A stretch of DNA of 64,000 nt from an uncultured virus (IMG/VR IMGVR_UViG_3300044701_002219) (taxonomy: Duplodnaviria > Heunggongvirae > Uroviricota > Caudoviricetes). Below are positions 27,601-49,887 of the stretch, in pieces (positions within the stretch are counted from its first letter, which is position 1; every line of letters starts with the position of its first letter). Under the pieces are notes generated by a model. The model worked only from the letters and a program-made list of their open reading frames with translations. It had not been told where the DNA came from and ran no database searches. Position numbers and translations under genes: made by a program. The DNA lies in IMG/VR virus record IMGVR_UViG_3300044701_002219; one strand, given 5' to 3'.

Positions 27601-29855
27601 CTTATATCTACTGTTTTAGTTGCTCCTCTAGACAAACCTCCATAGGGCTCAATAGTAACTTGATTACCATTTATCTCCCTAACTATATACATAGCATCAG
27701 ACCATTTAGAAGAACTAATTTTGTCTTTGTGTTCTTGCATTCCAGCATTCTGTTGCAAAAGAGATTCTCCTATTTTGTATAAAGGCTTTCCTGATTTTTC
27801 AAAAATAACAACGCTCAGATCTTTTCTAAGTTTTACCCCTGTTGCAGGTACTAGATAAGCAGGCTGATCCATGTACCAAACATCACTACTAAAAGTTACA
27901 TATACTTCGTTATTGTTCAAACTACCCGTTACATTAATTTTTTCTTCTTCTATATCTCCTTCATATCTTATCTTACCATCCACCATTATGGGTTTCCTAA
28001 TCTTATATATAAACTGGTGTGATCGAGAAGTTTTAGGAGTAGTAATAACTGATGAAACAGAGTTTTGAAGCTCTGCAATACTCGTATCTATAACGCTAAC
28101 AAAACTTGCAGCATCTTGAGAGTTTGATAAATCTAAAGTGTTTCCGGTGGTATTAAAATTACGATTAGTGTAGTCTTGAGAAGCTCTACTAGTAGGTACT
28201 GTAGTAAGTCTTCCTACAGTATTTATCCTAAATAAACGAGATGTAGCAGGAGTGTTTCTACCAGAAAAAATCTGATTTAAAACATTTTGATAAGAAGTGA
28301 TAGCCGTTGTTCTGTCTACTATTTTTCCAGGAGTTGTGGTTGTAATAGCTAAGTCGTTTAATCTAGCAAATTCTCTAGCATAACCAACAGCCATTGCTCT
28401 TGCTGATGATTCAAACTTATAAGAAGGACTATTTGCAACGAGCCAATTTTTTCTTTTATAATAGTCTGCCTTATTTAATATATCTTGAACAAATTTTTCA
28501 CCAGCACTAGAATGAAGGCTTGTGTTATTAACATTAACAATCGCCATAAAGCGAGTATTAGAAAATCTACTTTCTAACTCTGATCCAATCTCTTGCATTA
28601 AACGAGATCTATCTGTAGCAGTAAAACTAGTTTGATAATATTTTTTTAGGATATAGTCTACAACAGGACTTAAAGCATTTACAAAGTTTTTAGTGTTAGG
28701 ATCCTTATCGGTATTATAGAAATAATTATTAAAATCTTGGTACCTTCTTTCAAAGTTTCTTAGTTCTTCAATAACATCTTCTGTAGCATAAACTAGTTTA
28801 CTACTACGAGGATTATAGATTATCTTAGAATTAGGATGAGAAAGTATAGCATTTTTTAAAGTTTGATAATCTTGTATACTAGATGTAACACTGCTTTGAG
28901 AAACTCTCGAAGTACTTTCCACACGATCGGTAAAGTCTTCTGGCTTAGTAAAAAGTATTTTAGGATTAGAGATTAACGTAGCAAGAGTTTGGATATCTGC
29001 TCCAGGAGAAAGTTCTTGGATATTTATTTTAATCTCTTCTCCAAATAGTATACCCTTTATAGCTTCCCATATTTTAGTTAAGGCTGTAGCCAAAGTTTTT
29101 AATAAACCTTCATCTGGTTTCCAGTCCTCTCTAAACTTTCCAGTCTCAGGATTGAATAAGTTAGAACCGTATTTACCAAGCATTTCTGCTAGAGTTTCTT
29201 CTAGTAACTCTTCTGTAGTATAATCAGGATATAAAGGTTTTAATCTTTTTATCTCCTCTCCAAAAGCTAAACCATTTACAGTATCTTTAAGCTCATAATC
29301 TACAATAACACTTTCTTCTTTTTCTACACCTGTATTAGGATCTGTAACTTTTCTTTTCTCAGTCTTTACATTAAACAGACTATTCATCAAAGACATGTAA
29401 GCCCTTATGTTTTCTGTTCTAAGAAGATGTATAAAGATGTGAGAAAACTCATGGATCGGCGTATCTAAACCAGCTTTAGCTGTGTTTATTACTATAGTAG
29501 GTTTTCCTTCGATAGCATCAGGACTTGTTGGAGCAGCAACTTTACCTTTAAAGTTTTTATCCGGAGCATTTACTAGCTTGTAAGCGTATCCTTCTGGAAA
29601 CTTTTTAATAAGATCCTTACACATAGTTTCTAAAACCTCAACAGAAGCAACAGAAGGATTATTTTCTGAAGAACCAATCTGATACTGGTCTTTCATCTGA
29701 ACAGGTCTCATCGAAGACTGCGTAGCAAGCTTAGCCATTACTAACTCAGGGCTACGGATCTCTCCGTTAAACTGCATATAATCTTTGTAGGCTTGGAATT
29801 TACCTACAGCTTTAACTAGGTTATCCCAGTCTTTTCCATAAGGACATGCTATCAT
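21660..29855 (-). CDS. Giant virion ejection/cargo protein (two zincin-like HEFSH domains, LysM, C-terminal TM)
   Basis: 2731 aa. HEFSH at 29439-29453 and 26961-26975; LysM-like YTIQEGDTMESLAKKFNMPVEDLK; hydrophobic VIALIALLAVVAPMFGW; adjacent to the vRNAP. Confidence 0.8.
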   Translation of the reverse strand: MIACPYGKDWDNLVKAVGKFQAYKDYMQFNGEIRSPELVMAKLATQSSMRPVQMKDQYQIGSSENNPSVASVEVLETMCKDLIKKFPEGYAYKLVNAPDKNFKGKVAAPTSPDAIEGKPTIVINTAKAGLDTPIHEFSHIFIHLLRTENIRAYMSLMNSLFNVKTEKRKVTDPNTGVEKEESVIVDYELKDTVNGLAFGEEIKRLKPLYPDYTTEELLEETLAEMLGKYGSNLFNPETGKFREDWKPDEGLLKTLATALTKIWEAIKGILFGEEIKINIQELSPGADIQTLATLISNPKILFTKPEDFTDRVESTSRVSQSSVTSSIQDYQTLKNAILSHPNSKIIYNPRSSKLVYATEDVIEELRNFERRYQDFNNYFYNTDKDPNTKNFVNALSPVVDYILKKYYQTSFTATDRSRLMQEIGSELESRFSNTRFMAIVNVNNTSLHSSAGEKFVQDILNKADYYKRKNWLVANSPSYKFESSARAMAVGYAREFARLNDLAITTTTPGKIVDRTTAITSYQNVLNQIFSGRNTPATSRLFRINTVGRLTTVPTSRASQDYTNRNFNTTGNTLDLSNSQDAASFVSVIDTSIAELQNSVSSVITTPKTSRSHQFIYKIRKPIMVDGKIRYEGDIEEEKINVTGSLNNNEVYVTFSSDVWYMDQPAYLVPATGVKLRKDLSVVIFEKSGKPLYKIGESLLQQNAGMQEHKDKISSSKWSDAMYIVREINGNQVTIEPYGGLSRGATKTVDISELSAVSYFENRSIKVLNGVIDTIYVMYKDVPVDAITFSPISGGGPKRTGNEMRLGSYNDMFKRTFGKWATNTSGNVTKLIVPQFLKNMMTISQDLFQKGDSVSSIDGFEQSTEGSMATVGIEAAKPAISVSQETINNSNGVGTVKAFAKSLAGKLILNNKSFKYQFVTAGEAKRITENTRNPWTGQKAFFVGDTVYFVGDNISMEDVFHEFSHPFVRSLFLDNPKAFWSIYNDILKSEEGQQLYRDVKAAYPELSESDPLFAEEMIVRTLTKAAEMKNFELKPTTGFAKALKNLLYAIKQMLRKFFGQNIKVSKLDSVTSIDDLLSILGESEDVVLNEAVANNVDTVSYIKDFDQYVKDINRISKPELFGITVKAYDIAVKQIDTVLRNKNYREIANILSDQFKRGELDEIKRNLSKFAKPLEDKILAKRDKLQYEKAHAEAMVSTLFRLQNMVGKVKEHLKDLSEDTDSIDNMHKAYYYDYLLRYWSQYIQEVQRTMQESQIDEASPLSNLVGTIERGIKNAEVYTKQMYKTGARDALFNEISPMAKAIDEKYRNIIEKLKRDKAPQNLIELWTQEYYGLTEKEVERRDSLLSQQRLGTITQKGKLELDSLNKKSMDGAQITKEKMEMALNGEFRDSNVFNSFFEGYLYNTDPVVGSFALYVKNQMADVTNIAMQKFNSFASDLKPLLERAGYTPSNVNQLIDKIARVELVGKIDEDGNWVERQVYTLKSAHKDWRIALDRLRRDIDEAQRLYSENNSDQNHKNLIAAIAAKKKLLRDYFYQEYDPKVYARDEVFKKFDGDAVGEEAQYRRDKIFEQMEEISNPLNSMMDDYEISERMEQLWREYHQLYSLVDLNGNMKDVNSMDYKVAMRLKEHRNAAIDPATGESFFDWKPRFGIFESNLEKFEQELAEKYGYPSDEYTFHRANWIAKNTRTVLKKEFYEERARILDEINKIMNKLPDSARKAKRIGQIWTEILDLVAGNRDEDGQPNGMNFSDGGINFIKTRQEELTEAMNEFSGLNGLTPIESQEYQSYWEIINAKERELTDDEQVRFNVLMDKSSNSGLSKTDKKKLFGLFAKLQGLQKKEATDYYVMIMNHHLSKLNTTLMMNELNTNTITKSSANLILDDYIIDPLLEQSEEFKKWFMKNHIRKEIYDTESGTRKSIWERIYAWNVVRPTSDAYYETTTIKKEDGTEEVIKGLPALKYYARVVKPQYRTERIVGKTVDNQGNFLPRTDIADSPFIDKEYLEMSKNDPAHFAVLEKMKEHHLRNQEGLGYKSRLYLDIPRYRKNNLEVLRTKSLRGIAKDVGDEKAPMLQLLIERFKNFFRKAKDEKAGGEYNWEDDAMLVRADMFDNESVSVPISGLTDLDLTDTSPDVTQSLMRYMFSAERQKKLIEISPVAQALKTTVNDPANLTKQLDKINKFNFIHRGIITYLTKKGRYTRQAAVNNFIEREFEGQTDAGFTKDLPFLQNAANMILGRASFAYFAFNFPSAIKNAIGAKWQAMLHAVGGVDTDVPSMARGEMWAANTMFQISNNLYTRGAKPLSMQLADSFDAIRERAEKKLPEGMSRTFAHDLASLSWFSNFRQWTENQAALQLFGAMMYKKQIMRDGKEISYMDAWESIDGQLTLKSGIDVRYGNTPTEYTIQEGDTMESLAKKFNMPVEDLKQELSGVRFVEGKEIKIDNRLYKAFRNKVHAVSANLNGAYAKFDQPEAQRYLAYRMMSYLKRFFIPMFVNRWGYSGTLLGRKRGRVNFGLGDVQEGYYTTTLKVLWRTVEFAGKNWPHLTSEEKASVKKTVIEVIALIALLAVVAPMFGWDPADDERYEKLRQKSGSLPFPWVEEDRDRPFDLGGWMSNHALMMALQVRSENEAFVPWMGFGLDNYYETFTDVSSLGFGPTLETYKDMLELMYMEATGDPRARYKKDSGPYTWQREGGSKWLAEFMKSIGLTGSTLDPAVAVKKNPQFQGSGGGKSKEEKPKD

Positions 29856-29860
29856 TTTAT

Positions 29861-32800
29861 TTATCTATAACAGTAAGACATATATTCTCTAACCTGATCA
29901 TCAGTTATCTCCTGAGCTTCTTGTATTACTACTCTGCCTTCAGGCTTCATCTGATAACCAGGATTTACATATCCAAAGTTACGATAAAGTTGCTCAGATA
30001 AGTATAAAAAAGTTTGGGGAGCACCTATTTTTGCATTTTCTGGAAGCGCTTTTACATAAGGTTCTGGGAAATAAGTTTTGTTCCACTCTTGACCATATCC
30101 AAGACTAGAGAAAACTAAAGTTTTTCCCATATCAACTTGCTCCTTCATTCTTCTTATAGCTTCATCTATTTTGCTTCTCATATTTTTTGCCGGATCTGGA
30201 CTATCCAAATCTTCATCCTTTATAGCACTCTGAGCGTTTATGTTATACTGTCTATAACTAGGTATACCTAAAGTGTTAGCAGCATTACCATACTCTTTAA
30301 ACATCCTATCTAACGCAGTATTAGCAACAGCTCTGGATTCAAAAGCATCATTAAACACAAACGTAAAGTTGTCGTTAGAAGTAAGCGCTTCAACTCTTTC
30401 TTTAGTAAGATCTGCTGCGCTAAACTTTGCAGCAGTACCTTCCGATTGAGTAACTAGATCCATAGCATTTTCTATAATCTTGCTTCCATAAGGATTAGGA
30501 TTATATTCTTTTGCTCCTTTATTGGCTAAATACTTAGATACCTTAACATTAAAACCGGGTATATAGTAATCCTTTGTTCTTAATCTTAGTTTGCTATTCT
30601 TTACATCGTTTACTTTTAAAAACTTCTCATAGTAAAGGTTTAAAGCTAAAGGATTCATATTCTCTATAAACTCTTTAACCGGACCTTCCATGATACGTAT
30701 AATAGAATCTTGTGGAAGAATTCTATTAATAGAAAACATAGAGCTAGTATTTAGACCAGACTGTAAGAATCCTACAATAGGTAGATTAGCAAAGAACTCG
30801 CTGATCATCTGGTTAGCCTTAGCATTAGGAACTTTTAAAACAGTAGGATCCATAAGTTCTACCATGTTCTCATAGTAAAGATTTATTAGATCCGGATCTT
30901 TAAGAGGATCTAATATTTTAATATTACTATAAGTACCTGATGTATCATTCATAGAATGAGGAGCTAGTTTTTCAAGAACAGAATACTTATCTAAAAGCTT
31001 TGGATATAACTGCTTTATTTTGGCAAGCTTGTCAGCAACAGTGTCTTCTCCTATAAACATCTTAGTTTTATTAAAGATGTTTTCTAAAGCTCTGTCTTTG
31101 ATAAACTCCTCGAAAGCCATACGGTCCATGCGCTTAAGATAATCCTCTTGCGTTTCATCGGTGTTTAATGGTGTCTCCTTTATTAAATCGTGTTTTTTCC
31201 ATTCGAAATCCGGCCTACCGGAAAGATTAGAAACATTCTTATACAAGCTTCTTAAGTATTCTCTTTCTACTATAAAGTGAGAGAACTCATCAAAGCTTTC
31301 GAATGTACCGTCTTTTACTATGGCAAGACCTCCTTCGTTCCAATAGTTATCTTTAGAATATACTTTATCTTTATAGTGACGTCTTAGAGTATTCTTATCT
31401 ACGAACATCTTACCGTCCTTAAAGAATACTCCAACTTTTAAGAAACCTACGTCTTGCTTTATAGCAAGTTGAGAAGCCTCTCCAGTTTCAGCAGGGATTC
31501 CTTTATAGTACTTTACATCATCTATGTTAAAACTCTTAAGAGCATTTTGGAAGATAAAGCTTACTAGATCGTTTCTTAAAGTAGAAGAAAACCTTTCTGT
31601 ATCACCAAAAGTATTCTCAACATTTTCTAAAAAGGATTTATCTTTTATAGCGCTTAATAACCAATCATTAAGCTTATCATTATTACGTAGAGGGAACAGC
31701 TTATCCCAAACTTTTACTTGGAACTTTTGAATATAGAAACTTCCTATAGGAGATTCGTTTAATAGTTTGTCTACCATAAACTCTGGTAAACGATTACTAG
31801 AACGCATCTCTTCTAAAAGAGCAGTCTTATTAAGAGCATCGAATATACTAGTAGACTTACCAGTATCAAAATTGGTGCGCATCTTAAAGTCTCTAGTAGC
31901 TTTTGCCATGTCTTCTATTTCTAAGAAGTGCATGAATACAGCATCTTCATAAAGAGTATTCTTATTACTTTCCTCTTCGCTTAAAGGTGTAGTAACTTTA
32001 CCACTAGCTCTTTGTATGATTTCTAAAAGTTTGTCCTGGTTTACATATCCGCCGTTATCAGCAAAAGCTTTTGTAGTAGCTTCTTTAGCAGCCCTAAAGA
32101 ATGCTGGCTTATTATTTTTTTCTATGTCTTCAGAATTGATATCTATACCAGTTTCATATTCACCTCTAATAGATATCTTCTGAAGGATTCTCTTACGAGC
32201 TTCGTTTCTGAAAAACATAGGACTAGAAGCTTCTTTACCAGTCATGATACCAAAACTACTCTTAGCGTCTCTTTGAGCTTCTACATATTCTCTTATAATA
32301 GGTAGAGAAGCAAAGTATATAGCAGTTTTTAAAGGTACACCGGATTCTATCATGAACTCTAGAACAGGTGCAACTTCTTTATTACCCTGGATATTAAATA
32401 ACCAGGTATCTTTAGCAACGTCTACAGAACCATTTATAAGCTGAGAAAGAATATCAGAAATCTTTTGATTCTCAGTATTATAAATATTGGAAATTGATAT
32501 AGCACTCTTACCGTTGATTGTTCTTATGTTATGAGGCATCAAAAGAGTTTGACGTACAGTCAAAGTATCTCTTCCTTTGTTGATAGATAGATTAGCCTCC
32601 GGATTTAGGTATGCTCCAATACGGTTAAATATAGTATTGTAAGTGTTACCTACAGCTAATAAACCAAGAACATCTTTACCAATGCTATTAGACTGATGCT
32701 TGTATAAGTTATAGCCTATTTCTAATATTCTTGTACCAGATATAGATTTTAGATCTTCTCCAAGTTCCGCACGTTCTTCTTTACTAAGGTCAGAATCAGT

Positions 32801-35800
32801 AGATAATCTAGCTTTAGGATCATACTCTACAACATCATCAGCAAGTTCATCTGCAATAGGCTTAACTAAATCTGTACCATTAGGTGTAACCAAAGATGTA
32901 TAGTTACTAGAAAGAGATAAGATGTTTTTCATATTCCAGATAAGGTCATTTTCCAAAGCCTTAGATCCAAAATATTTTTTATCAAACTCTTCTTCAGACA
33001 TAAGCTTTCCTTCTTCCATAAGAAGAGAGACAAACTCATCATCCATGTTAAACGCTTCTTCTCCAAAGATTCTGTAAAGAGAACTACTGAAAAGAGAGTT
33101 AAGTATCTCGTTAGCTGCAGCTGCTTTTACAGACTTAGTTTTACGGAACTCTCCTACATCTTTTAGGAACTCTTCATCAGTTACTGCTTTCTTATATAAA
33201 TCGTATAGATCTTTCTTTTCTTTCTTGCTTAGTTGCTTAGATATTGTTACTCCTAACTTAGGTATACGTGATATGTTAGGCATCATCACGGTGAGCTTAT
33301 CAATATCAAAGTCACCACCAGACTTAGCTACAATCTCAGAAGGTGTTACTATTATAGCACCAGCTTCTTCTGGTAAGAATTCGTATACTTCCATAAACTC
33401 CATAGAGTTCATACCCTGAACCGGGATACGACATCCTACCATAGTAATCATCCTACGGTTGTCTGCAATATTCAACCACTCCTCATCTCTAAGTAACTCG
33501 TTAAGTTTTTCTCTTGTACCTATGGTTCTTCCTTCTTTATCTTTTAACTGGAGTAATAACTTAAACTTACCTTGTAAAGCAATCTTTACCTTCATTGCTT
33601 TAGTATCCTTTCCTTCTTCTCTTCTGTAGAAAGGTAGGTCGTTTGTTCCGTATTTCTCTAGATCTTCTTTTGTAGGATTGGTATAGCTTCTACCTGTAGA
33701 GTTTTTATTTTCAAACACAGCATTAGATACTTGCACTAAGCTTTCTCCGTTTACTTTTTGTTTGATTAACCTACGAGTAACTATGGCATTAAGAACCTTC
33801 TCTATTTTTTCAGCTGATAAAGAAAGAGATAAGTCATGCTTCATAGTCTTACCACCATAGCCAAGATCTATAAAGTCTATCTCATGATCTGCCATATCCT
33901 GGCGAGTCATCTCTTTACGAACAAACTCTAATAGATCTTTTAGATTACCTTCCGGTTCTCCATTGACCATCTTCCAGTTCATCTCGTCCAAAAGCTCTTG
34001 CATCTTATATTCTGTAAGAGCTCTAATATTCTTTTCGTATTCTTTGTATAATCTGTATTTCTTAGAACGGTTTTTCTCTTCAGGTGAAGCAGCTTCCCAT
34101 GCGGCTACTCTCTCATCTAAAGAAAGATCCATTCTAAAATCTGTAGGAACTCCTCCTTCAACAAGACCTTCTTCTATCAACTTTCTCATCTGAGTAGAGA
34201 AGATAACCTTGTTCTTATACTTAGGAGCAATGTATAACTGATTCTTTAAATAGTTTACAAATATGGTGTTCTTTGTAAACGGTTCTTTAGATATTTTTCT
34301 GTCGTTATCGGATTGATAAAGCTTATCGTATTCTCCGTACTTAGTAATGTTACCTACTTTAGAACCAGAGTTAAACGTAGCATAATCAATATTCTCGGAT
34401 ACCATCTTATCGTGTAGCTCTAAAAGATTTTTATCTGTTATAACAGATGGTATTAATGGCATCAAAGAAAACTTATGGAAAGCTGTAATAGGCAATCCTT
34501 TAGTATCCAAAGTTCCGAAGTACTGTAACTTTTGAGGAGGGAATGTTTGAGCAACATCTGCTGCTGACACAGGTTCTTCGTTTACTATTTTTTGGTAAAG
34601 AGCTTCTTGCTCATTAGACCACTGACCTTCTAGATTAAGTAAGATTCTGTATGAGTCAAAAGTTATCCAACCTTGACCATCACCCTCATTCATCTCGGTA
34701 TAAGCTTTAGCAGGGCTACCTTTTAACGGTTCCTTTATAGTACCTTTAGTTTGAGTTTTGCTATCGTAACCTAATATTTTTCTTTCTGCTTTTTCTCTAT
34801 CGTTACCGTTAGCCTCAGTTTCTGCTTTTATCAAATCTTTAATAATCTGTTCAGAATAAGCAGATGGTATCTCATTATCTTTTAAGATAGCTGTATTAAG
34901 TCTACCGGTAAAAGGTTCTAATGTAGTATTAGAGAACTTTGATTCTTTATGTTTTTGATAATATCCTCTACCTAAAACATTGTTTACAAAATCTAAAGCG
35001 GCTCTATCAGTACGGAATAAAGTACCCGTAGAACCTACACCGGCATTACGTTTATGGAACTCTTCCTTAGCCATGTTATACTGAGCAAGATCTCCGTAAA
35101 TCATAGATAAAGACTCAACATTATGTACCCAGCTATTAACTACAAAAGATCTCATCAAAGCATCTTTTGCCATAGTCATTCCTTCTTGCTTCTGTTCTGC
35201 TGTAGTAGCTTTCTTAATCTTTAAGTTTATATTCTTATTTCTAGCATCTCCTTCTAGTTTCTCATAAAGATTATCAGAAATAATCGGCTGACCATTTCTA
35301 CTCTTGATCTTGAAGAAAGTATCAGATACTCTCTTAGTTTCTTTATTGAAGTAATCAACTATGTCTTTTTCTACAAGTTCCCTTAAAGAGTTTGCTTCTG
35401 CTGTTTCTGTTTTAAAGAACTCCATCAGATCTCCCTTTACTTCTCTAAGTAACCTAAGTTTAGTCTTAGGCATAAGGACATCAGAGAACTGTACAAAAGC
35501 CTGTCCCTTCTTTATATAGTTAAAGTCTTGATTAGTAACTGTTTTAGGATCCTGTTCGATAGCCTTAGCGAAAGAACGCATGGTTCTAATCCTAGATAAC
35601 TCAGCATTAAGATGAGGTAATAAGATATTGTCTATAAGCTTTCTATCTCCTTTAGACATTCCTGGCTTATCGTTTTGTAAGAAGCTAACAGTATCTACAT
35701 AAGTTGTACTACCTTTTTCTCCTGCACCATATATCTCACTTAAGTAAGCTGAGAAAGATGTTCCCTTATCAGCATGGCGCATTAGTTCAGGAGCTCCTTT

Positions 35801-38800
35801 TAGTAGAACCTGGTGAAAGTCCATAATTAGTTTAGTGGCAGCGTCAGCAGAAGCAGAAGAAGTACCGCGATCGTAATCGTAGTCTCCATCTAATTGCATA
35901 GCTACACCACTAAGATTTTGAAGGTTTATCTTAACTGGTAAACCTTTAGTATATCTCTTGTTTCCAAAATTAGTATTAGGCATCCCGTTCTCATCCTTCT
36001 CACGCATATCAAATATGGAGTTTAACCATATAGAAGCTTTTGCAAAAGGATTTCTTCTTATATCTAGATAGTTCATCCACGGCAAGCTTATTAACTCTTG
36101 ATAAGTCTTACACTCATTGATAGCATTTATCATTACTGATAAAGAGTTATTTAAAGATTGCTCATACTGGGTGTTACCTTCAGCGTTAGTAGACATGAAG
36201 TTACCCATAGTCTCAGAGTATCTAGCCTGCAGCTTAAGGATCTGATTATAAGTACTACCCTCATCTGGTATAGCAGCATATTTGATTTGATCAGTACCAT
36301 CTTTGTAGATAGGGCCATAACCTTTCTTTATATCTTTTATGCTAGTGATTTTTATAGGCTCAATAGACCCGTCAGCATTTCTCCTTCTTATCTGAGTAAG
36401 TACATTCCAGAATCTAGAAATATTTATCTTACCGCTTCTTATCGGTTCTTCTATATCTTCATTATCAGCATCTAAGTTGTATCCTATTGCTCTTAAGAAA
36501 TCTAACTCCATTCCAGGTTTAAACTCCGGAATAATATGGTTTGCTGTACCAGGTTTAGAAAAAGCATTTATTACAGCATTTATATCTAAAGTACGAATAC
36601 CAAAAGCATCAGGTTTAATAAACGCTGTAGTCTTATTAGCAAACTCAGTATCCCAAGCTGTAGCTACTTTGTTATGAGGAGCTCCAGCTTCTCCAGGTCT
36701 AACCTCAAACTTCCAGTTCTCAAAAGTTAAAGCTGTTTTATTACTATTCTTAGTAACAATCTCTACTGTCGTTTGTAATAGAGGAATATTGGATTTATTA
36801 AACGTCTGGAAAAACTCTGTCCAAAGTTTAAACTCGTCAGTGCCTCTTGTATTTACAGGGCCCAACTTTGCAAGAAGTTGCTTCATAGGAAACTGAGGAT
36901 GCGTATCCCCAAAAGCAATCATCTTGTTATACATCGTTTCCGCATCTAAAGTACCCTGAAGTAACTTTGATAAGACGTTCCATACTTTATCAAAGTTTTC
37001 TAACTGAGGAATACCAGAAACAGATTTTACTCCATCCCTTTCTACGGTAGTAAGAGTACCTGGAACATAATCCATGTTACCTCTCTCATCTAGTTTATGC
37101 AAACTTCTTAGTACGAATATGATCTCTGCACTAGCTAAATCTAGCTGAGAAATTTCGTTACCAGCTTTACCGTGACCCTCTCTTCCTTTGTTTGCCGTAA
37201 GCTCTTCTTCTGTAAATAAGTCTCCTTCAAAAAAGTCTTCTTTAACAGAAGCATCAACTATCTGAGACTTTAGCATATGGTACCCAATCAAACCTTTAGG
37301 ATAATCTCCTTTTGCAGGTCTGTTGTTTACAAAGTTTTGGATGTCTCCAAAGTTTTCTATAGCCCAGTCTAATCTGTTTATTTCTTTCTGTACGCTATCT
37401 TTTACAGGACCATCGTCCATCTGTTGATACTGCTTGTACAAACCGTTTCTTATTAAAGCGATTTCTTGAAGAACCTCTTCATAAGCAGCCATCAAACCTT
37501 TTGGCTTCTTTAGTAAAAGACTAGTCCACTTATAAGTACCTTTTGCATTGTTTAGTTTATCTACAGCTTTAGATAATAAAGAGTCTACAGTATCAACTAA
37601 GAACTTAGAATCTTCGTATCCTAAAGATTTTGTAACTGATTCAGGATCTATAGCTTGAATCCCTTTATCTAGTCCTGAGAAGGTTACATTGCTTTCTGAG
37701 AAACTATACTCGTTTATATTACCTACTCTAAGTTTTTCATATATCTCATGAATAGTAGAGATGGCTTTATCAGACGCAACTACTTCATTAAGAGTAGCGT
37801 TGCTAAATAAAACTTTAAGGATATCAAGAATCTTTTGGAAGATGCTTCTCTTAACCGGCTTAGCTATCTCAGCTTTTGCTCCGGATACCATCCACTTTCT
37901 AAAATCTTCAGCTAAGTATTCTTCTAACTGTTTTTCATCTGCTTTGTCAAAGTTTACACGGTTTCCTTTATAGTCTATAAAACTACCCGGCATCTTAGCA
38001 GCCTCTTTATATAAAGCTTCTTTTTCTGCTTTTGTAAGAAAGGCTTGAGTAAACCCGTGCCAAGCTTCGTGATAGATATCAGAGTAATCTGCTCCTTTGA
38101 AAAGAGTTATACCCTGAAGATTCCAGTTAGCAATAGCTTTTACATTCTTAGTATTAACCAAGTTAAACATTACTTGGATAGGAATATGCTTAGCTAAAGG
38201 ATGAGACTTTTCATCAAACTTCTTTTTAAGTTCTTTGTATCTAGCGCTAGAAGTTTTCTTTTCTTCTCTAAGCTTTTGCATCTCCTCAAATTCTTTAGAG
38301 CTAAGTCCAGTATACCAAGTAACAGCTCTTTCTACTTGTTCTTTAGTAGCTTTCTTTTCTGCGCCTTTCTGATCTAGGTTTTTGTTAAAATCTGGATCAT
38401 CAAACAATGAGTCTATACCTTTCTTAACAGGAGTTTCTGAGTTGTCCGATTGAGCAACTGTAGGTGCTGGAACAGGATTCTCTACTTTAGTTTCTCTGCG
38501 AGGATTAATCTGCTCTAAATCTTCTGCTAATGGAGTAAAGGTAAAGTAAGAATTAAGGTTAGATATCTTACCTTGACCATTAACAGGATAGTTAACAAAA
38601 GTATTTTGAGCAACAAAAGTATTATAGGATTTTAGAGAAGTAGTTAGAACTATCTGGCCATTTTGATTTGATAAAGAAACATCTTTAAAGTCTAAGTTTA
38701 AAGTCGAAGCTTCTATATTAATCTTAGGATAGCTAACAGTATAAAACTGATCAGTACCTTCTTTTATAAATATAGATCCTACTTGTAAGTTGTTTCTAAC

Positions 38801-40813
38801 TCCTGGAGCATTTATATCAGTGCCGGTTATAGATCTACTTCTTTGAGAAGGAGTAATATCGCTTAAAGGATACGGAGCATCTTGAATACCTAAAGTATTA
38901 AAGAATCTTTCGATATCAGCTTTAGCTTGTGTTTTGTTTGCAACATCTTGTTGTTTCTCTTCTGCAGTAAGAGTTGCCCCTTCTGCTGGAGAAGTATATA
39001 TAGTTCTACCAAAAATACTTACTTTATACTGTTGAGTTGTAGAATCAAATTTTATATCTAAAGACTGAGGCCTAGCCATAAAATAATTCTTGATGTAAGC
39101 TCTTCTTTCATCAAAGCTTAGAGGAACAAGTTCTGTCCCAGACTTTACTTTTATATCATCTAAGAATAAACTAGTAAGCTTTTCTACCAATCCTTCTACA
39201 CTGTTTACAGGATTTCTTTCTAGCTTTATAGATAAGTCTCCTGTTTCAGGAGTCTTAACATAAGTAAATCCTGCTAGTTGTTGGTTGGCTGGATTATCAA
39301 TAGTTGGAATATCTAGTATCAGAGTAACGCCTTCTCTATCATATGCTTCTTTTATTTTAGAAAAAGGAGTTTTTACATCATAGCTAAAAGCAGCATAGCC
39401 AAACGTACCTCCATCAATATTCATCCGGAAGGTTTTGTTTGGATCATTCTTTAAAGCTTGTCTTATTTCGTATATAGTTTGTAGCTCTTTTCTAATCTCA
39501 GATAGAGCTTGTTCTATAGAAATCTTTTTGTTACGAGAACGAGCAAGAGCTCTCTCGTATTCCATATCTCCTTGCTGTATAGGTTTTACTTTACCATTCT
39601 GCAACATGCTAGGATAAATATCTCTTAGCAAGTAATAAGCAGGCTTTCCGTTAGGATCATAAGCACCATCTTCGTTTAGAGGTATTATATTACCATCTAC
39701 ATCCGTAAGAACTAAGACAGGTTCATTAGAATCCCATATAGAAGGTTTAGTAAAAGTACCACCGTCTTTTTTTCTATATACTCGAGTTTCTCTAGATTCA
39801 CTTCTAATCTTATCTATAGAAAGTTTTGTAATAGGCATTGCTGTAAGCCTAACACCTCTTTTGTAGTAACCTTCGATATTTATATTAGAACCATCTTGAC
39901 TAGCCCCTGGAGCAAAAAGTTTACTAAGTATTAATCTTTTCATCTTAAAGTACCAAGCTACAACTGGATTAGGTACATTATAGTTAGGAGATGTTTTATC
40001 CACCCATTCTATAGCCTCTTGATCCTGATCAGCAAACACGCTAGGCTTTACTGCTTCAAACTCTTTACTAGATCTTTGATAAGAAAAATTTGTTGCGGGT
40101 GCCGGATCTGTAACTGTAATATCTTCTACATCTTCTAACCCATCTATGTTTTCTTTTTCTTTGTTGTAGTAATCAGCTATCTTCTGTTTAATTTCTTCGT
40201 AAGCATTCTCACCTTTAGTTTCGATATTAACCTTAGTCCCGTTCTTTTTATGAATCTGCGCTTTATATATTGATTGGTTTTCTGCTGTAGAAAAAGAATA
40301 CTCTATAGAGTCTAAACTCTTTTGTCTTCTCTCTTCTAACTCATCTTTAGGGTTTTCAGATTCTTCTTTACCTTCAGGTTTTTCCTGAGGAAATTCTTGA
40401 TCCATTTGATCTCCAGCTAGATTTTTATTTGCTTCTCTAATCTCAAGAGCTATATCTCCTTCAGATAAACCTAAATCTTTTTTTATTTCTGCTATGCCCG
40501 TATTAGGATCAGAGTATTTAATAATAGTTTCTTCTAACTGGTTAAAGTCTACTCCTTTCTCAACTAGTCTTTTTCTAATCTCTCTAGTAGGACTAGGATC
40601 AGCCGCTTTAATCTGATCTATAAATAAAGGAACTAATGCCGCATAAGCAAGAGCTAATTCCGCATCACCAGAGTTATCTAAAATAAAATCGTGTATAGAT
40701 TTAGTATAGTCTTTTACAGAAAAAGGTTCTGTACTCGCAAGAGCTGTAGATAAATCTTTTGAAACTTTTTTACGAAGACTTCGTTGTTGTTCGTTAGTAA
40801 GAGCACAAATCAT
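29861..40813 (-). CDS. Virion-packaged RNA polymerase (crAss/phi14:2 gp66 type) with zincin-like domain
   Basis: 3650 aa. Catalytic GGDFDIDKL (DFDID at 33299-33313), RIPVQG, DGQGW, STQMRK, VDVAKD; HEAWH...EEYLAE at 38057-38071. Confidence 0.9.
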   Translation of the reverse strand: MICALTNEQQRSLRKKVSKDLSTALASTEPFSVKDYTKSIHDFILDNSGDAELALAYAALVPLFIDQIKAADPSPTREIRKRLVEKGVDFNQLEETIIKYSDPNTGIAEIKKDLGLSEGDIALEIREANKNLAGDQMDQEFPQEKPEGKEESENPKDELEERRQKSLDSIEYSFSTAENQSIYKAQIHKKNGTKVNIETKGENAYEEIKQKIADYYNKEKENIDGLEDVEDITVTDPAPATNFSYQRSSKEFEAVKPSVFADQDQEAIEWVDKTSPNYNVPNPVVAWYFKMKRLILSKLFAPGASQDGSNINIEGYYKRGVRLTAMPITKLSIDKIRSESRETRVYRKKDGGTFTKPSIWDSNEPVLVLTDVDGNIIPLNEDGAYDPNGKPAYYLLRDIYPSMLQNGKVKPIQQGDMEYERALARSRNKKISIEQALSEIRKELQTIYEIRQALKNDPNKTFRMNIDGGTFGYAAFSYDVKTPFSKIKEAYDREGVTLILDIPTIDNPANQQLAGFTYVKTPETGDLSIKLERNPVNSVEGLVEKLTSLFLDDIKVKSGTELVPLSFDERRAYIKNYFMARPQSLDIKFDSTTQQYKVSIFGRTIYTSPAEGATLTAEEKQQDVANKTQAKADIERFFNTLGIQDAPYPLSDITPSQRSRSITGTDINAPGVRNNLQVGSIFIKEGTDQFYTVSYPKINIEASTLNLDFKDVSLSNQNGQIVLTTSLKSYNTFVAQNTFVNYPVNGQGKISNLNSYFTFTPLAEDLEQINPRRETKVENPVPAPTVAQSDNSETPVKKGIDSLFDDPDFNKNLDQKGAEKKATKEQVERAVTWYTGLSSKEFEEMQKLREEKKTSSARYKELKKKFDEKSHPLAKHIPIQVMFNLVNTKNVKAIANWNLQGITLFKGADYSDIYHEAWHGFTQAFLTKAEKEALYKEAAKMPGSFIDYKGNRVNFDKADEKQLEEYLAEDFRKWMVSGAKAEIAKPVKRSIFQKILDILKVLFSNATLNEVVASDKAISTIHEIYEKLRVGNINEYSFSESNVTFSGLDKGIQAIDPESVTKSLGYEDSKFLVDTVDSLLSKAVDKLNNAKGTYKWTSLLLKKPKGLMAAYEEVLQEIALIRNGLYKQYQQMDDGPVKDSVQKEINRLDWAIENFGDIQNFVNNRPAKGDYPKGLIGYHMLKSQIVDASVKEDFFEGDLFTEEELTANKGREGHGKAGNEISQLDLASAEIIFVLRSLHKLDERGNMDYVPGTLTTVERDGVKSVSGIPQLENFDKVWNVLSKLLQGTLDAETMYNKMIAFGDTHPQFPMKQLLAKLGPVNTRGTDEFKLWTEFFQTFNKSNIPLLQTTVEIVTKNSNKTALTFENWKFEVRPGEAGAPHNKVATAWDTEFANKTTAFIKPDAFGIRTLDINAVINAFSKPGTANHIIPEFKPGMELDFLRAIGYNLDADNEDIEEPIRSGKINISRFWNVLTQIRRRNADGSIEPIKITSIKDIKKGYGPIYKDGTDQIKYAAIPDEGSTYNQILKLQARYSETMGNFMSTNAEGNTQYEQSLNNSLSVMINAINECKTYQELISLPWMNYLDIRRNPFAKASIWLNSIFDMREKDENGMPNTNFGNKRYTKGLPVKINLQNLSGVAMQLDGDYDYDRGTSSASADAATKLIMDFHQVLLKGAPELMRHADKGTSFSAYLSEIYGAGEKGSTTYVDTVSFLQNDKPGMSKGDRKLIDNILLPHLNAELSRIRTMRSFAKAIEQDPKTVTNQDFNYIKKGQAFVQFSDVLMPKTKLRLLREVKGDLMEFFKTETAEANSLRELVEKDIVDYFNKETKRVSDTFFKIKSRNGQPIISDNLYEKLEGDARNKNINLKIKKATTAEQKQEGMTMAKDALMRSFVVNSWVHNVESLSMIYGDLAQYNMAKEEFHKRNAGVGSTGTLFRTDRAALDFVNNVLGRGYYQKHKESKFSNTTLEPFTGRLNTAILKDNEIPSAYSEQIIKDLIKAETEANGNDREKAERKILGYDSKTQTKGTIKEPLKGSPAKAYTEMNEGDGQGWITFDSYRILLNLEGQWSNEQEALYQKIVNEEPVSAADVAQTFPPQKLQYFGTLDTKGLPITAFHKFSLMPLIPSVITDKNLLELHDKMVSENIDYATFNSGSKVGNITKYGEYDKLYQSDNDRKISKEPFTKNTIFVNYLKNQLYIAPKYKNKVIFSTQMRKLIEEGLVEGGVPTDFRMDLSLDERVAAWEAASPEEKNRSKKYRLYKEYEKNIRALTEYKMQELLDEMNWKMVNGEPEGNLKDLLEFVRKEMTRQDMADHEIDFIDLGYGGKTMKHDLSLSLSAEKIEKVLNAIVTRRLIKQKVNGESLVQVSNAVFENKNSTGRSYTNPTKEDLEKYGTNDLPFYRREEGKDTKAMKVKIALQGKFKLLLQLKDKEGRTIGTREKLNELLRDEEWLNIADNRRMITMVGCRIPVQGMNSMEFMEVYEFLPEEAGAIIVTPSEIVAKSGGDFDIDKLTVMMPNISRIPKLGVTISKQLSKKEKKDLYDLYKKAVTDEEFLKDVGEFRKTKSVKAAAANEILNSLFSSSLYRIFGEEAFNMDDEFVSLLMEEGKLMSEEEFDKKYFGSKALENDLIWNMKNILSLSSNYTSLVTPNGTDLVKPIADELADDVVEYDPKARLSTDSDLSKEERAELGEDLKSISGTRILEIGYNLYKHQSNSIGKDVLGLLAVGNTYNTIFNRIGAYLNPEANLSINKGRDTLTVRQTLLMPHNIRTINGKSAISISNIYNTENQKISDILSQLINGSVDVAKDTWLFNIQGNKEVAPVLEFMIESGVPLKTAIYFASLPIIREYVEAQRDAKSSFGIMTGKEASSPMFFRNEARKRILQKISIRGEYETGIDINSEDIEKNNKPAFFRAAKEATTKAFADNGGYVNQDKLLEIIQRASGKVTTPLSEEESNKNTLYEDAVFMHFLEIEDMAKATRDFKMRTNFDTGKSTSIFDALNKTALLEEMRSSNRLPEFMVDKLLNESPIGSFYIQKFQVKVWDKLFPLRNNDKLNDWLLSAIKDKSFLENVENTFGDTERFSSTLRNDLVSFIFQNALKSFNIDDVKYYKGIPAETGEASQLAIKQDVGFLKVGVFFKDGKMFVDKNTLRRHYKDKVYSKDNYWNEGGLAIVKDGTFESFDEFSHFIVEREYLRSLYKNVSNLSGRPDFEWKKHDLIKETPLNTDETQEDYLKRMDRMAFEEFIKDRALENIFNKTKMFIGEDTVADKLAKIKQLYPKLLDKYSVLEKLAPHSMNDTSGTYSNIKILDPLKDPDLINLYYENMVELMDPTVLKVPNAKANQMISEFFANLPIVGFLQSGLNTSSMFSINRILPQDSIIRIMEGPVKEFIENMNPLALNLYYEKFLKVNDVKNSKLRLRTKDYYIPGFNVKVSKYLANKGAKEYNPNPYGSKIIENAMDLVTQSEGTAAKFSAADLTKERVEALTSNDNFTFVFNDAFESRAVANTALDRMFKEYGNAANTLGIPSYRQYNINAQSAIKDEDLDSPDPAKNMRSKIDEAIRRMKEQVDMGKTLVFSSLGYGQEWNKTYFPEPYVKALPENAKIGAPQTFLYLSEQLYRNFGYVNPGYQMKPEGRVVIQEAQEITDDQVREYMSYCYR

Positions 40814-40817
40814 AATA

Positions 40818-43800
40818 TTATCTTTTACAGCCTAAACTATTTATTAATTCATCATCTACTTCTTCCTGAGTCATATTCTGAGCAGAGGCAATATCTTCTC
40901 TAACACTGTCTGTACTGTTTAACTCTTGGGCAGTAGCAACATTTTCATTAGAAGTTTCTTGCACTTGCTGTTCTACTTCCGGATCTGTTTTTGTAAGTGT
41001 TTCCACGAATGGTTGATCTTTATAAAGGACTTTGTTTTTAAACTCTGATTTCTTGATGTCAAAAGTAGAACTATCTGGCGATTCTCCATACTTTCTAACC
41101 ACTAATTTATTATCAGTTTTTTCTACAACTACAACTATTCCACCAGACTTAAGTTTCAAAGCTTCGTTTACTCTAACATCATCAAAGTCTACTTCTAGAG
41201 CAAGCTGTGCAAGTCTTGTTTCTACAGCTCTATCTAGTCTATCGCTATCCACGTTAAGAGGATCTGCGCTTATAGCCTCATTTACAATAGCTTCGATCTC
41301 AGACTTAAAGCCAGCTCTGGCAATCATTTCTTCTACCTCAACCATTCTAGCTTCTTTAGATTGAGCTTCTCTAAGCTTAGCTTGTTCTGCTTCTCTCTGA
41401 GCTTCTTGATCTCTTCTAGACTTAATGATGTTACCGTCTATTAATCTCTGAGCTTCTTCAGAACTCATGTTATTAAGTTCTACCCAGTCTGTATAACCAA
41501 GATCTCTACTTAGGATACGTTTCTGAGCATTAGAAGCTTTAGGACCTGTACCAGTTCTAGAAGGAGCTTGCGTTTCTTTTGAAGAAGCTGGAGGATACTT
41601 TGCAGTAAGTTCTGCTACATCTTCTTTAGAAGATGCTTGACGAACAACATCTCTTTCTTCAGCAGTCATAGCTTTAAGTTGTTCAGCAGTAAATCCTAAA
41701 CGCTGACCTTTTGCTATAAGAGCTGCGGACGGAGCTGTTTCTATTTGAGGTCTTTTTGTAGACGCATCTTCTAAAGCAGCTAGTTCTGCGTCATACTTAG
41801 CATTAATTTTGTTAGTAACATCTTCTACAGAAGAACCTGTTATTCTTTCGGTTATTGGTGCACCATTAGAGTCAACCTTTCCGGAAACATATAATCCACC
41901 AATGTTTTTATCTACGCCTTCTGTAATACCTAATTCATTAATGCTATAATTTTTTCTTGTTTCTATATCAGTAATAGCTTTAAACAAAGCTGGATACTTT
42001 GTAACAACACTTCCTGCTACAGTAGGCTCTTTAGGATTTTCTAAAAAGAACTTAGCAAGCCTTTTTAACTCAGTAAACTCTGAAGCTGTGATAGCAGCTT
42101 TTTCTTTTTCTATCTCAGTTCTAGTATCTGTAGAAACAGGAGGTTGTTTAGCTGTAACTGAAGGTCTGGTAGCTTTAGTACGCTGCACCTTATCGTTATG
42201 ATCTGCAATGATTTTAGATGCAGAAGTAAGTCCTAGATTTAAGAAGTCTCTAAAGTACTTGCTACGCTTGATCTCATCATCTGTTTTTTCTAAAGCAAAC
42301 TCATCCGGCCATTCTGAAGCAGATGTTCTATCTGGACCTATCTGTGTCTTTACAAATTCTTTGTAAGCATTGATAAGACCTGGAAGAAGTCCTGCTTGTT
42401 CAAACTCATCTATACTAGATCCTAGGTTTAGAACCTGTCCTGTACCAGCAACTGTTTGAGTAGTTGTGGTTTGCGGTTCTATTCCAAGCTGAGTCTTATC
42501 TATAAAGGTTGTAGCAATATATAAGGCTTCATCTAGTAAAGAACTATCTTTTGATACACCAAGAAAACGCTGTAAGAATCTTCTAAGAGCATCTTTAAAC
42601 TCTGTCCATAAAGACTTGCCGGTTCCTTTTACCTTAATGGTATCTAACCACATGGCAAATCTATCATTGGTAAATAACTCACTAAGAAACTCTTGTTCGT
42701 TCTTTAATCCATAGAAAGGTTTTTTTGTACCGTCTTTATAAAGAGTCTGATCTGTAGGAGGATTATTCTCAAACTCATCACGAGCTATCTGCAATAACTT
42801 AGTTATCTCTGCTTTAAAAGCAGCATCCTTACTCATCTCGAAAGAAGTAAGCTCGTGGATAAGTTCATGAAGAACTACATATTCAAATGCTGTTGTTCCA
42901 CCACCTCTATAGTCACGAGACATATATCTAGGATCTATAGAAACTCCTATTTTAGCTTCGTCAGAATACTCAAATACTCCTGGAGTAGGAAGCTTCTTAA
43001 AGGTGATTTCGCTTTCTTCTTTAACTAATCCTAATAATCTTCTAGCTAAAGCTTTCTCTCTATAGGTAGCAAAAGGACTATCTATAATCTTTTTTAAAAC
43101 ATCTTTGGTTTTTACTTTACTAGCAGAATCTAAATTTACATCGAAGCCAAACTCCTTAGCAAAATCTTTTAAAGTTCTTGTATCATTATTAATCTTATTT
43201 CTACGAGCCGTAGCGTAAAGCATAGCCGTTGTATAGTCTGCTTCTTCTATAGGCTTTTCCTCAAACTCCATATTTCTGGCTTGCTCATATTTTTCTATGA
43301 GATCCATGATTTGTTTATACTTCTCAGAGTTCTCGGGTATTCTTTCTTTTTTAGATATAGAATAAAAATCTGATGGTACTCTCTTTTCGATAACAGCATC
43401 CATACCAGCTTCATCTAAAAAGACGTCCATCTTATAAAGCTCTACAAATAAATCGTTTACATTAAGATTATCAACAAACTTAGTATAAGCTTTTTCTAAG
43501 TTTTCTTTATTCTGTTTCTTAGCTTCTTTTTCTAGATCGGCATATCTCTTAGCATAAGCTAACATTCCTTTTGGATTATGTAGCATATCCACAGCCAAGG
43601 CCATATCTTTAGCATCATGTTTAAGATCCTGATAATCCATCATATCATTAAAAGAATCTTCTATAGATTGCTCAGATATATTAATACCCATTTGCTTAGC
43701 CCTAAGTTTTAAGATGTTAGAGTAAGCTTCTCTAACCATCTGCTCTGCGTTACCTAATACAGATACTTCTTCAGGAGCTACTTCACCTGAAACTATTTCT

Positions 43801-49500: not shown

Positions 49501-49887
49501 TGTACAAAGCTTCAACATCTCTCCTCTACTCTTCTGATTCATCCAGTTCTTTGTATAAGCCATATCCTTTAGGATATACTTATCCTCATACAAACCTTTA
49601 AAAACATTCATAGCCTGATCTACATTCTGCTGCAAGGATAAATCCATACCAGCCATTTTGTTGATATCTTGTTCTATAGACTTAAAGAAATCTTCTCTTG
49701 CTGTAATATTATCTTGATGGGTAAGAGGCGAGTTTAACAAAGTACCATAGACACTACTAAGTTGTTTCTTATTAGCATCATATCTACTCTGTTTAGTTTG
49801 AAGAATATTACCTAAGAAATTAAAGTCTGGTTGAAACGGTTGTATCTGAGGAATGTATGTTGTTACGCCTTGTATGTATGTTGCCAT
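46555..49887 (-). CDS. Putative virion cargo/internal protein
   Basis: 1110 aa, helical, begins MATYIQGVTTYIPQIQPFQPD; crAss-like cargo gene position. Confidence 0.7.
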   Translation of the reverse strand: MATYIQGVTTYIPQIQPFQPDFNFLGNILQTKQSRYDANKKQLSSVYGTLLNSPLTHQDNITAREDFFKSIEQDINKMAGMDLSLQQNVDQAMNVFKGLYEDKYILKDMAYTKNWMNQKSRGEMLKLCTDPKKCGGSWWEGGDKYLDYKRQEFANASREQTMNMKDVSYVAAQNFTDDAIKAAKDAGFKVKMDKVQGDYIVTTTNGTDMVGSLAEWYISKYGQDPKVMDYLKASAYVKRKDWVGQNLGEYNNDEKEANMAYVSSLYAKSLEDAEKDKNKTQKELDIVKAKSKLIDKTVKEDGYLESSGWLDAWLDMKGEEPVIEQKKQIYDKNFEGLKSLGINRDNIDFVLDNMDNNVAIAMLKQEALNSASLYAANTMEVEYKANQVALQNKQIASTERLAKNREGYIVYDPVTKQNVYVPGTDHMSKVKIKEMEQEFEKKQAKEAQSRIGQEGYTPVVKGGTATGNLWDLSKNVVKNALFGQTKNVAEEANINKHNEVINTLNQTQRQMINEVINTAKIAYKGEKASTEEIAPAIYDIAKGAGINVTDPSKKGYVDIKNLIQGSTDEAKKFNDALNESGNLKGGYDAARAITNPKSYSYNLYKKWTEGLEQASNNIANVYKEKLQVKEAIEAHNEKQALITKEKFNAEVDNLAYKGDLETNDNVQTPLRDSGSFLAEGQISEPELRKNLMAQLLDKAGNKGFMPKYSDIVGAIQYLDSSTNTKDGELILTPQERQSIDLLKRKGITTFTTAYDPKNPYLRAVPITANAIRIANFIKNFANENKQHFGELVGRPQRDADMSVKDFSRDSYQNALAFVAKNIESDFKLFKHNYRENASSWNNLEGGKTTGMKGMALASDIDAANLNSIGAKDFFEFSKAMDIAGDRAVVTYGDFVEVPESSNATAKKILDLFRTTMATGSPINKDGIPTKEDRALGNFEITGIAAHDPNLIGFRVVPGMTWGEQHTSTENKTRTIPENDTKYNEEGIVVFLPKDAVPQNIIDKFETTDLDFVMQQKGSITIENPMGGTATLAKEGLGYRLNMGIVKIDPQTGKTYYDMTTSYQGPDLILKDFKTAFENDFDYMATINTNALQALSQEKGIKDPNQLFGKK

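What the first reader, a model, noticed from the sequence alone, without database searches (positions are those of the whole stretch)
29844..40829. Terminal cysteines link the three giant ejection proteins head-to-tail in gene order
Seen: by eye the three proteins (~8300 aa in total) contain only about 7 Cys, and four of these are at termini. The 1916-aa protein ends ...TQEEVDDELINSLGCKR (its only Cys, 40827-40829). The vRNAP starts MIC (40805-40807) and ends ...TDDQVREYMSYCYR (29870-29872). The 2731-aa protein starts MIACP (29844-29846). The first protein lacks an N-terminal Cys and the last lacks a C-terminal Cys, which is the topology of a linear A-B-C chain. Both C-termini look like a short amphipathic helix plus C-x-R. 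Inference: disulfide or metal-bridged end-to-end coupling lets the unfolded proteins be threaded out of the tail in fixed order. Any disulfide would have to form after lysis or in the periplasm.
Basis: partly seen in the sequence, partly recalled or inferred. Interest (0 to 1): 0.82.

Follow-up and report, generated by a model that had tools for sequence, protein, structure and literature searches.

The report
Cysteine-tipped docks chain crAss cargo proteins
Three giant proteins that this crAss-like phage most likely packs and injects, with its RNA polymerase in the middle, each have a cysteine at the end that faces the next protein, and relatives keep such a pair at nearly every gene break and lack it where the genes are fused, which points to end-to-end docking sealed by disulfide bonds that nobody has yet shown.

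Summary
Observation confirmed: 7 Cys in about 8,300 aa, four at the facing termini, at the stated codons. The middle gene is a crAss-type virion RNA polymerase. In 93 non-redundant related loci, 168 of 171 junctions inside the block carry both cysteines, free ends carry none (0 of 53, 0 of 9), and internal Cys is 33 in 577,183. In 17 named phages, 23 of 25 junctions do, also where the first gene is inverted, so gene order is not required. Extra split genes carry Cys at both ends where fused relatives have none. A model docks A's tail on the polymerase's first helix with both Cys in the interface: 0.71, best control 0.01. Best reading: two different tail-head docking pairs, locked by disulfides, make one reducible chain. 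The precedent is the cryo-EM bond gp27 Cys1715-gp26 Cys5 of cyanophage A4, with no detectable homology. The bond and its role in ejection are not shown. This scan has noted the pattern before in at least 10 other genomes.

The parts
40818..46553 (-). Gene A, 1911 aa (1916 from TTG 46568): first chain member, one HExxH motif at 1229, single Cys near the C-end; positional counterpart of phi14:2 gp67 / crAss001 gp47
   Evidence: position in the block, (no direct sequence hit to gp67/gp47)
40821..40934 (-). A tail dock, last 38 aa: acidic amphipathic segment ending in Cys (codon 40827-40829)
   Evidence: Cys invariant in 46 of 46 selected rows; partner in the complex model
40460..40813 (-). B head dock, residues 1-118: all-helical domain, Cys3 (40805-40807) before helix 7-26
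   Evidence: pLDDT 91.7; no clear fold match
29861..40813 (-). Gene B, 3650 aa: crAss-type virion RNA polymerase, Cys at both ends
   Evidence: phi14:2 g066 by tblastn E 1e-18; PDB 6VR4 E 3e-20
33299..33313 (-). DFDID catalytic motif of B (residues 2501-2505)
29864..29923 (-). B tail dock: short amphipathic segment ending in Cys3648 (29870-29872)
29712..29855 (-). C head dock, residues 1-48: three short helices after Cys4 (29844-29846), C-P..W..L..G pattern
   Evidence: pLDDT about 70-86 over residues 1-50
21660..29855 (-). Gene C, 2731 aa: last chain member, two HExxH motifs, partial LysM (2396-2420), hydrophobic segment 2549-2567, no C-terminal Cys
46555..49887 (-). Upstream 1110-aa gene: outside the chain, Cys only at 128 and 134 (internal control)

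Best explanation
A, B (RNA polymerase) and C form one long cargo chain made from three genes. Each break carries a docking pair: a short helical tail ending in Cys on the upstream protein and a small helical head starting M-x(1-5)-C on the downstream one. The two pairs differ in sequence, so A joins B and B joins C. Shown: the sequence rule (pair at breaks, none at free ends or fused seams). Predicted: A's tail wraps round B's first helix with both Cys at the interface. Inferred: docking happens during capsid assembly; the Cys pair oxidises after lysis or in the periplasm; the bond keeps the partly unfolded proteins tied while they pass the narrow tail, fixing 1:1:1 delivery and order; the reducing cytoplasm opens it and frees the polymerase; purging other Cys avoids wrong cross-links. 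My odds: functional pairing of facing ends 0.95, direct docking 0.85, disulfide 0.75, ordered threading as the main purpose 0.5.
For: 168 of 171 in-block junctions in 93 clusters (90% core identity) have both Cys: 167 by script plus L007, whose head lies in another frame. Free C-end 0 of 53, free N-start 0 of 9, internal Cys 33 of 577,183. Control ORFs: 12 and 19 of 139 have Cys in the first or last 10 aa. Named phages 23 of 25 junctions, free ends 0 of 17 each (my count). Two-gene phages keep only the remaining pair: second gene with RNAP and no C-terminal Cys (p-crAssphage, cr110, cr3, cr271, crAss002), first gene with RNAP and no N-terminal Cys (cr118, cr4, Fpv3, cr108). Three kinds of extra gene (266, 579, 291 aa) have Cys at both ends and match parts of B or C that are fused and mostly Cys-free in relatives. 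TGT and TGC are both used, spacing is 8-181 nt in all frames, and the pair survives inversion: selection is on protein. Complex model: 0.71, best of 3 controls 0.01; the mark was reached by 116 of 157 solved and 2 of 215 mismatched pairs (rough here: own alignments); runs agree in at least 86% of contacts, partner pLDDT at least 77; B Cys3 and A residues 45-48 (Cys is 48) are in the interface. Heads do not align with each other, nor tails; cognate tail-head similarity covaries beyond the core (0.24, 0.31) and non-cognate does not (0.005, -0.06). Precedent: A4 gp27 C-terminal helix inserted in gp26 with a Cys1715-Cys5 bond inside the capsid (PMC12002296); these are the only Cys of both proteins and 4 of 4 relatives keep the pair.
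Against: No experiment shows the bond in a crAss-like phage. The crAss001 structure paper ran reduced and untreated virion samples and, in the passages seen, reports disulfides only in gp57 and the tail. The model output does not list a Cys-Cys pair or distance; only the A-B junction was modelled. Exceptions: cr273_1 has its last Cys 49 aa from the end; IAS gp55|gp56 is one-sided in an N-rich stretch; three mid-gene breaks lack Cys and a Met start, one with a 1-nt deletion against an 80%-identical relative (L058), two unresolved (L161, L077). Named faecal phages carry many internal Cys (cr271 gp68: 15), so purity is not essential. Covariation is confounded by kinship and DNA linkage, and one non-tail window of A scored as high as the tail (0.185 against 0.167). 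The 161 loci were the best hits of one lineage, so they are not independent events.
Confidence: 0.72

Rival explanations
1. The link serves capsid packing, not ejection order: docking and disulfide staple the cargo into a pre-ejection assembly or load it in fixed ratio, and the chain comes apart before or during exit.
For: In A4 the bond sits in the outer ring of the packed pre-ejectosome. crAss001 has room for about 6 copies of each of the three proteins. All sequence evidence fits this too.
Against: Interchange with gene fusion suggests that continuity must last as long as a peptide bond would (inference). Not exclusive of the best reading.
Confidence: 0.3
2. The cysteines bind a metal ion (for example Zn shared by two junctions of neighbouring chains) rather than forming a disulfide.
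For: Would work in a reducing cytoplasm during assembly and in an anoxic gut (general knowledge). Acidic residues are common in the tails.
Against: No conserved His (at most 9% at any position) and no second Cys near any of the four sites, so one junction gives two ligands only. The solved analogue is a disulfide.
Confidence: 0.1
3. Peptide-level ligation (trans-splicing or thioester chemistry) joins the proteins into a true polyprotein.
For: Split and fused forms are interchangeable.
Against: Head Cys is at position 3-7, never 2, no intein domain in Pfam scans, and reducing SDS-PAGE of crAss001 virions gave bands near 150 and 270 kDa, the monomer sizes, besides one above 300 kDa (PMC6235969; the figure was not seen).
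Confidence: 0.03
4. B closes on itself (Cys3-Cys3648) and A pairs with C, or each end pairs with its own kind in oligomers.
For: B has two terminal Cys; termini are unresolved in the gp66 crystal.
Against: In two-gene phages the polymerase protein has one terminal Cys, facing the neighbour. The model supports A tail on B head. B tail does not covary with the start of the B head (-0.12).
Confidence: 0.04
5. A DNA-level by-product of overlapping stop and start signals in AT-rich DNA.
For: TGT dominates (66-72 of 74-85 per class) and the genes abut.
Against: Both codons occur, spacing and frame vary, neighbouring junctions lack it, and it persists when the genes are far apart and inverted.
Confidence: 0.01

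Closest known systems
Cyanopodophage A4 (Anabaena phage A-4L, Saffermanviridae) ejection proteins gp27-gp26 (PMC12002296; passages seen)
   Same: Adjacent giant ejection genes; sole Cys two residues from gp27's C-end and at position 5 of gp26; C-terminal helix inserted into the partner; disulfide seen by cryo-EM.
   Different: One junction, no RNA polymerase, no detectable sequence similarity to the crAss-like ORFs (phmmer E below 1: none). Here two distinct junctions, three in some relatives, and interchange with fusion.
Crassvirales RNA-polymerase cargo block: phi14:2 gp67-gp66-gp65, crAss001 gp47/gp50/gp49 (bioRxiv 2020.03.07.982082, PMC10172136; passages and one section seen)
   Same: Homologous polymerase, flanking giant virion proteins, fusion in some phages; the same terminal Cys are present in their sequences.
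   Different: The texts searched contain no 'cystein', and mention no disulfide for these proteins; the order of extrusion is left to packing and mutual interactions.
N4 / Schitoviridae virion RNA polymerase (PMC13434306; passages seen)
   Same: A giant ejected chain of loosely linked N-terminal part, polymerase and C-terminal part; the authors ask how the three crAss proteins relate to these.
   Different: One polypeptide with a T7-like polymerase; no disulfide or cysteine mentioned in that text.
Docking domains of modular polyketide synthases (recalled, no call)
   Same: Short terminal helical modules that join separately encoded giant proteins in fixed order and vanish on fusion.
   Different: Non-covalent, no terminal Cys, cytoplasmic enzymes; no homology found or expected.

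Membership tests
crAss-like virion RNA polymerase cargo block | Large protein with DFDxD motif homologous to phi14:2 gp66 | tested here: met
   DFDID 2501-2505
crAss-like virion RNA polymerase cargo block | Giant flanking genes with zincin-like HExxH motifs, downstream of the muzzle gene | tested here: met
   HExxH in A, B, C; crAss_MUZ E 5e-17 at 59426-63853
crAss-like virion RNA polymerase cargo block | Proteins present in the virion | not testable with these tools
   Shown by MS for crAss001 and phi14:2 counterparts
Order Crassvirales (formal) | Placement by capsid, terminase and portal phylogeny | not tested
   These genes were not identified in the window and no genome is held
A4-type disulfide-linked ejection proteins | Cys at facing termini of otherwise Cys-poor adjacent ejection proteins | tested here: met
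A4-type disulfide-linked ejection proteins | C-terminal helix docks on the next protein | tested here: met
   Prediction only, A-B junction: 0.71 against best control 0.01
A4-type disulfide-linked ejection proteins | Disulfide bond observed in virions | not testable with these tools
   Needs gels, MS or cryo-EM
A4-type disulfide-linked ejection proteins | Sequence homology to gp27 / gp26 | tested here: not met
   No phmmer hit of gp26-gp29 to the window proteins or ORFs of the related loci
Split intein / protein trans-splicing | Intein domain with Cys1 and terminal His-Asn | tested here: not met
   No Pfam hit; no such residues at the ends
Zinc hook or zinc finger | CxxC or Cys/His ligand set | tested here: not met
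   Single Cys, no conserved His; a site shared by two chains is not excluded
Bacterial lipoprotein | Signal peptide and lipobox before the Cys | tested here: not met
   Cys at position 3-7 after Met
Known fold for the B head domain | Clear structural match | tested here: inconclusive
   Best Z 5.7, rmsd 3.8 over 94 residues; no viral match at E 0.001

The most novel reading that the evidence does not exclude
crAss-like phages build a redox-switched virtual polyprotein: separately encoded cargo proteins are joined by an expandable code of orthogonal Cys-tipped docking pairs into one thread of about 8,300 residues. The thread is pulled through the tail in fixed order, held at the inner membrane by the last member, and cut by cytoplasmic reduction, which releases and activates the self-inhibited RNA polymerase. 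The same solution would have arisen separately in cyanopodophages.
Probability: 0.35. Interest if true: 0.88.

Novelty: new variant of a known kind. Interest (0 to 1): 0.72.

Why it matters
How crAss-like phages, the most abundant viruses of the human gut, deliver several very large proteins in order through a channel under 50 A wide is stated as open (PMC10172136). This reading names four residues per phage and a one-day test on cultured phages (crAss001, phi14:2). It also explains why the block appears as three genes, two genes or one across the group, gives a simple marker for true gene breaks versus frameshift errors, and offers small candidate docking pairs.

Tried and rejected
Pfam and PHROGs name no family for A or B and only a partial LysM in C. 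Fold searches of the B head gave no clear match, which shows neither novelty nor difference. Profile searches found no Cys-less copies of the four modules inside cargo ORFs (terminal hits 89, 132, 112, 64; internal 0, 0, 1 weak, 0), so fused seams keep no detectable remnant. Seams in the named two-gene phages could not be mapped by homology for p-crAssphage, cr110 or the A part of cr118 and cr4; their fusion is inferred from size and position. A first pass missed 23 of 161 loci through a too-strict rule and was redone on all 161. Five loci (L007, L032, L058, L059, L161) were left out of the motif, codon and covariation sets; the alignments for modelling used the 45 or 39 loci closest to the window, so invariance there is partly by selection. 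Two breaks inside the catalytic motif (cr108_1, cr116_1; probably introns, inference) were left out of the 25 named junctions. L032 and L059 breaks are indels against near-identical loci. No genome is held for the window, so a phage-encoded thiol oxidase or thioredoxin outside the window could not be sought; none was found among the window genes scanned. Not in print as far as searched: and term look-ups. The Yutin papers on crAss genomics were not read; Extended Data tables and supplement file 1 of PMC10172136, and bioRxiv supplements, could not be seen and may bear on this.
Full report
Observation. The three minus-strand genes are A 40818-46553 (1911 aa; 1916 from an upstream TTG), B 29861-40813 (3650 aa) and C 21660-29855 (2731 aa). 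At the rate of the 23 non-cargo genes (66 in 5,787 aa) about 95 would be expected; random placement fills the four terminal windows with P about 1e-10. The three internal Cys are not conserved (0 of 82, 0 of 93, 0 of 3).

Identity. B carries DFDID and matches phi14:2 gp66. A muzzle gene lies upstream. A, B and C carry HExxH motifs and C has a partial LysM and one hydrophobic segment. This is the RNA-polymerase cargo block of a crAss-like phage; its counterparts in crAss001 and phi14:2 are virion proteins.

Conservation in close relatives. 161 loci were fetched through the polymerase core and fall into 93 clusters at 90% identity. Of 178 junctions between adjacent long ORFs, 7 lie outside the block (3 upstream, 4 downstream) and none of these has both Cys. 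Of the 171 inside, 167 have both by script; L007 has both once a frameshift is allowed for; 3 are mid-gene breaks with neither Cys nor a Met start, of which L058 shows a 1-nt deletion against a relative and L161 and L077 are unresolved. Free ends: 0 of 53 last C-ends and 0 of 9 first N-starts. Internal Cys: 33 in 577,183 residues.

Named phages. In 17 records (Steigviridae, Intestiviridae, Suoliviridae, Fpv3, Dulem virus 41) 23 of 25 junctions have the pair, two after reading the start at a downstream Met (cr110_1, crAss002); free ends 0 of 17 each (my count). Misses: IAS gp55|gp56 in an N-rich stretch and cr273_1, whose last Cys is 49 aa from the end. Where the block has two genes, only the remaining junction has Cys. 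In crAss001, cr128_1, IAS, DAC15 and cr116_1 the first gene is on the other strand and the Cys remain, so the rule concerns protein order, not gene order.

Splits. Three kinds of extra gene lie between B and C in some loci, each with Cys at both ends: 266 aa (L005, L006, L007, L010), whose second half matches the C-terminus of B in L050, L119 and L162; 579 aa (L044), whose body is the front part of C in L151, L038, L167 and others (the 11 other rows listed have one N-terminal Cys, two of them one more far inside); and 291 aa (L171), matching both. A new break comes with a new pair.

Protein, not DNA. Both Cys codons occur and the distance between the two codons runs from 8 to 181 nt in all three frames.

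Anatomy of the junctions. Tails are acidic segments with hydrophobic periodicity; heads are small helical domains. No His or second Cys is conserved. B head and C head do not align (2% probability), nor do the tails, and sequences sort to their own class in 72 of 74, 82 of 85, 74 of 74 and 85 of 85 cases. Tail similarity follows that of the cognate head after allowing for the core (0.24, 0.31) and not the other head (0.005, -0.06); among distant pairs the B-C signal peaks at tail by head (0.196) while for A-B another window equals it. Kinship and linkage are not excluded, so this is weak support.

Docking model. B 1-118 with A's last 38 residues scored 0.71 against a best control of 0.01; the mark was reached by 116 of 157 solved complexes and 2 of 215 mismatched pairs, counts that hold only roughly with my own alignments; runs agreed in at least 86% of contacts and partner pLDDT was at least 77. 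The tail wraps round B helix 7-26. B Cys3 and A residues 45-48 of the 50-aa piece (Cys is 48) are listed in the interface, but no Cys-Cys pair is among the 25 printed. No like solved complex was found. This supports binding; it does not show it.

Mechanism. Shown: the sequence rule. Predicted: A-B docking. Inferred: a disulfide at each dock, formed after lysis or in the periplasm; a continuous thread during exit through constrictions under 50 A, for which the proteins must partly unfold (PMC10172136, section 11 read); release by reduction in the cytoplasm, in line with gp66 being assayed alone in DTT. crAss001 virions do form disulfides elsewhere, and reducing gels give monomer-sized bands plus one above 300 kDa (PMC6235969, passages). 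The most hydrophobic segment of C lies 132-189 aa from its end in 49 of 53 relatives (Kyte-Doolittle 1.8 or more in 33 of 53; B 0 of 74), a possible membrane anchor at the far end of the chain. The main rival is that the link serves packing only.

Comparison. The closest solved case is phage A4: gp27's C-terminal helix inserts into gp26 with a Cys1715-Cys5 bond (PMC12002296, passages). These are their only Cys and 4 of 4 relatives examined (of 20 records matched) keep the pair, but no homology to the crAss proteins was found. So the window works like A4 without belonging to its protein families. The crAss papers searched do not describe the terminal Cys, although the crAss001 study ran reduced and untreated samples. 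PMC13434306 (passages) names the relation of the three proteins to the N4 polymerase domains as open; PMC5512222 has no 'cysteine' (term look-up); PMC10136315 was seen in passages.

Earlier notes. The scan holds 10 such findings on at least 10 other genomes, 8 shown, none on this one. They are not independent support.

Verdict. A real, group-wide feature with a specific, cheap test; a multi-link variant of a kind solved once. Interest 0.72.

Noticed in passing
window:22155-22211 (-), C residues 2549-2567: Hydrophobic segment near the C-end of C, at a like position in 49 of 53 relatives, with a partial LysM about 130 aa before it: possible membrane anchor of the chain.
   Followed up: partly
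window:46555-59426 (-): The four upstream genes (1110, 847, 791, 1509 aa) each have exactly two Cys, close together (spacing 3-14), three of the pairs including a CGG or GGC context; crAss001 gp45 and phi14:2 g69 also have one close pair.
   Followed up: no
L012:21824-22115 and L183:17165-18006: The polymerase gene of cr108_1 and cr116_1 is interrupted inside the catalytic GSD-x-D motif, in cr116_1 with a small gene in the gap; probably introns.
   Followed up: no
L014, L020, L021, L180, L183: In five Steigviridae the polymerase and last cargo gene lie on the opposite strand to the first, at the end of the replication module, yet keep the Cys pair with it.
   Followed up: yes
L179, L182, L021, L183: Named phages from faeces carry far more internal Cys in the cargo proteins (10-15 in some) than the 93 clusters near this window (33 in 577,183 aa), as if the purge relaxes in anoxic habitats.
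   Followed up: no
window:21620-21650: GC-rich hairpin flanked by A and T runs just after C's stop, between the converging gene sets; looks like a two-way terminator (by eye).
   Followed up: no
window:1789-2643 (+): Radical-SAM gene of the spore photoproduct lyase family (E 5e-25) next to a uracil-DNA glycosylase gene (4010-4729).
   Followed up: no
window:12710-15398 (+): DUF2201 metallopeptidase/vWA gene followed by an AAA ATPase.
   Followed up: no
L173-L176: Pf-WMP3, Pf-WMP4, TR020 and CHP58 keep the A4-type terminal Cys pair at about 23-27% identity to A4 gp26.
   Followed up: yes
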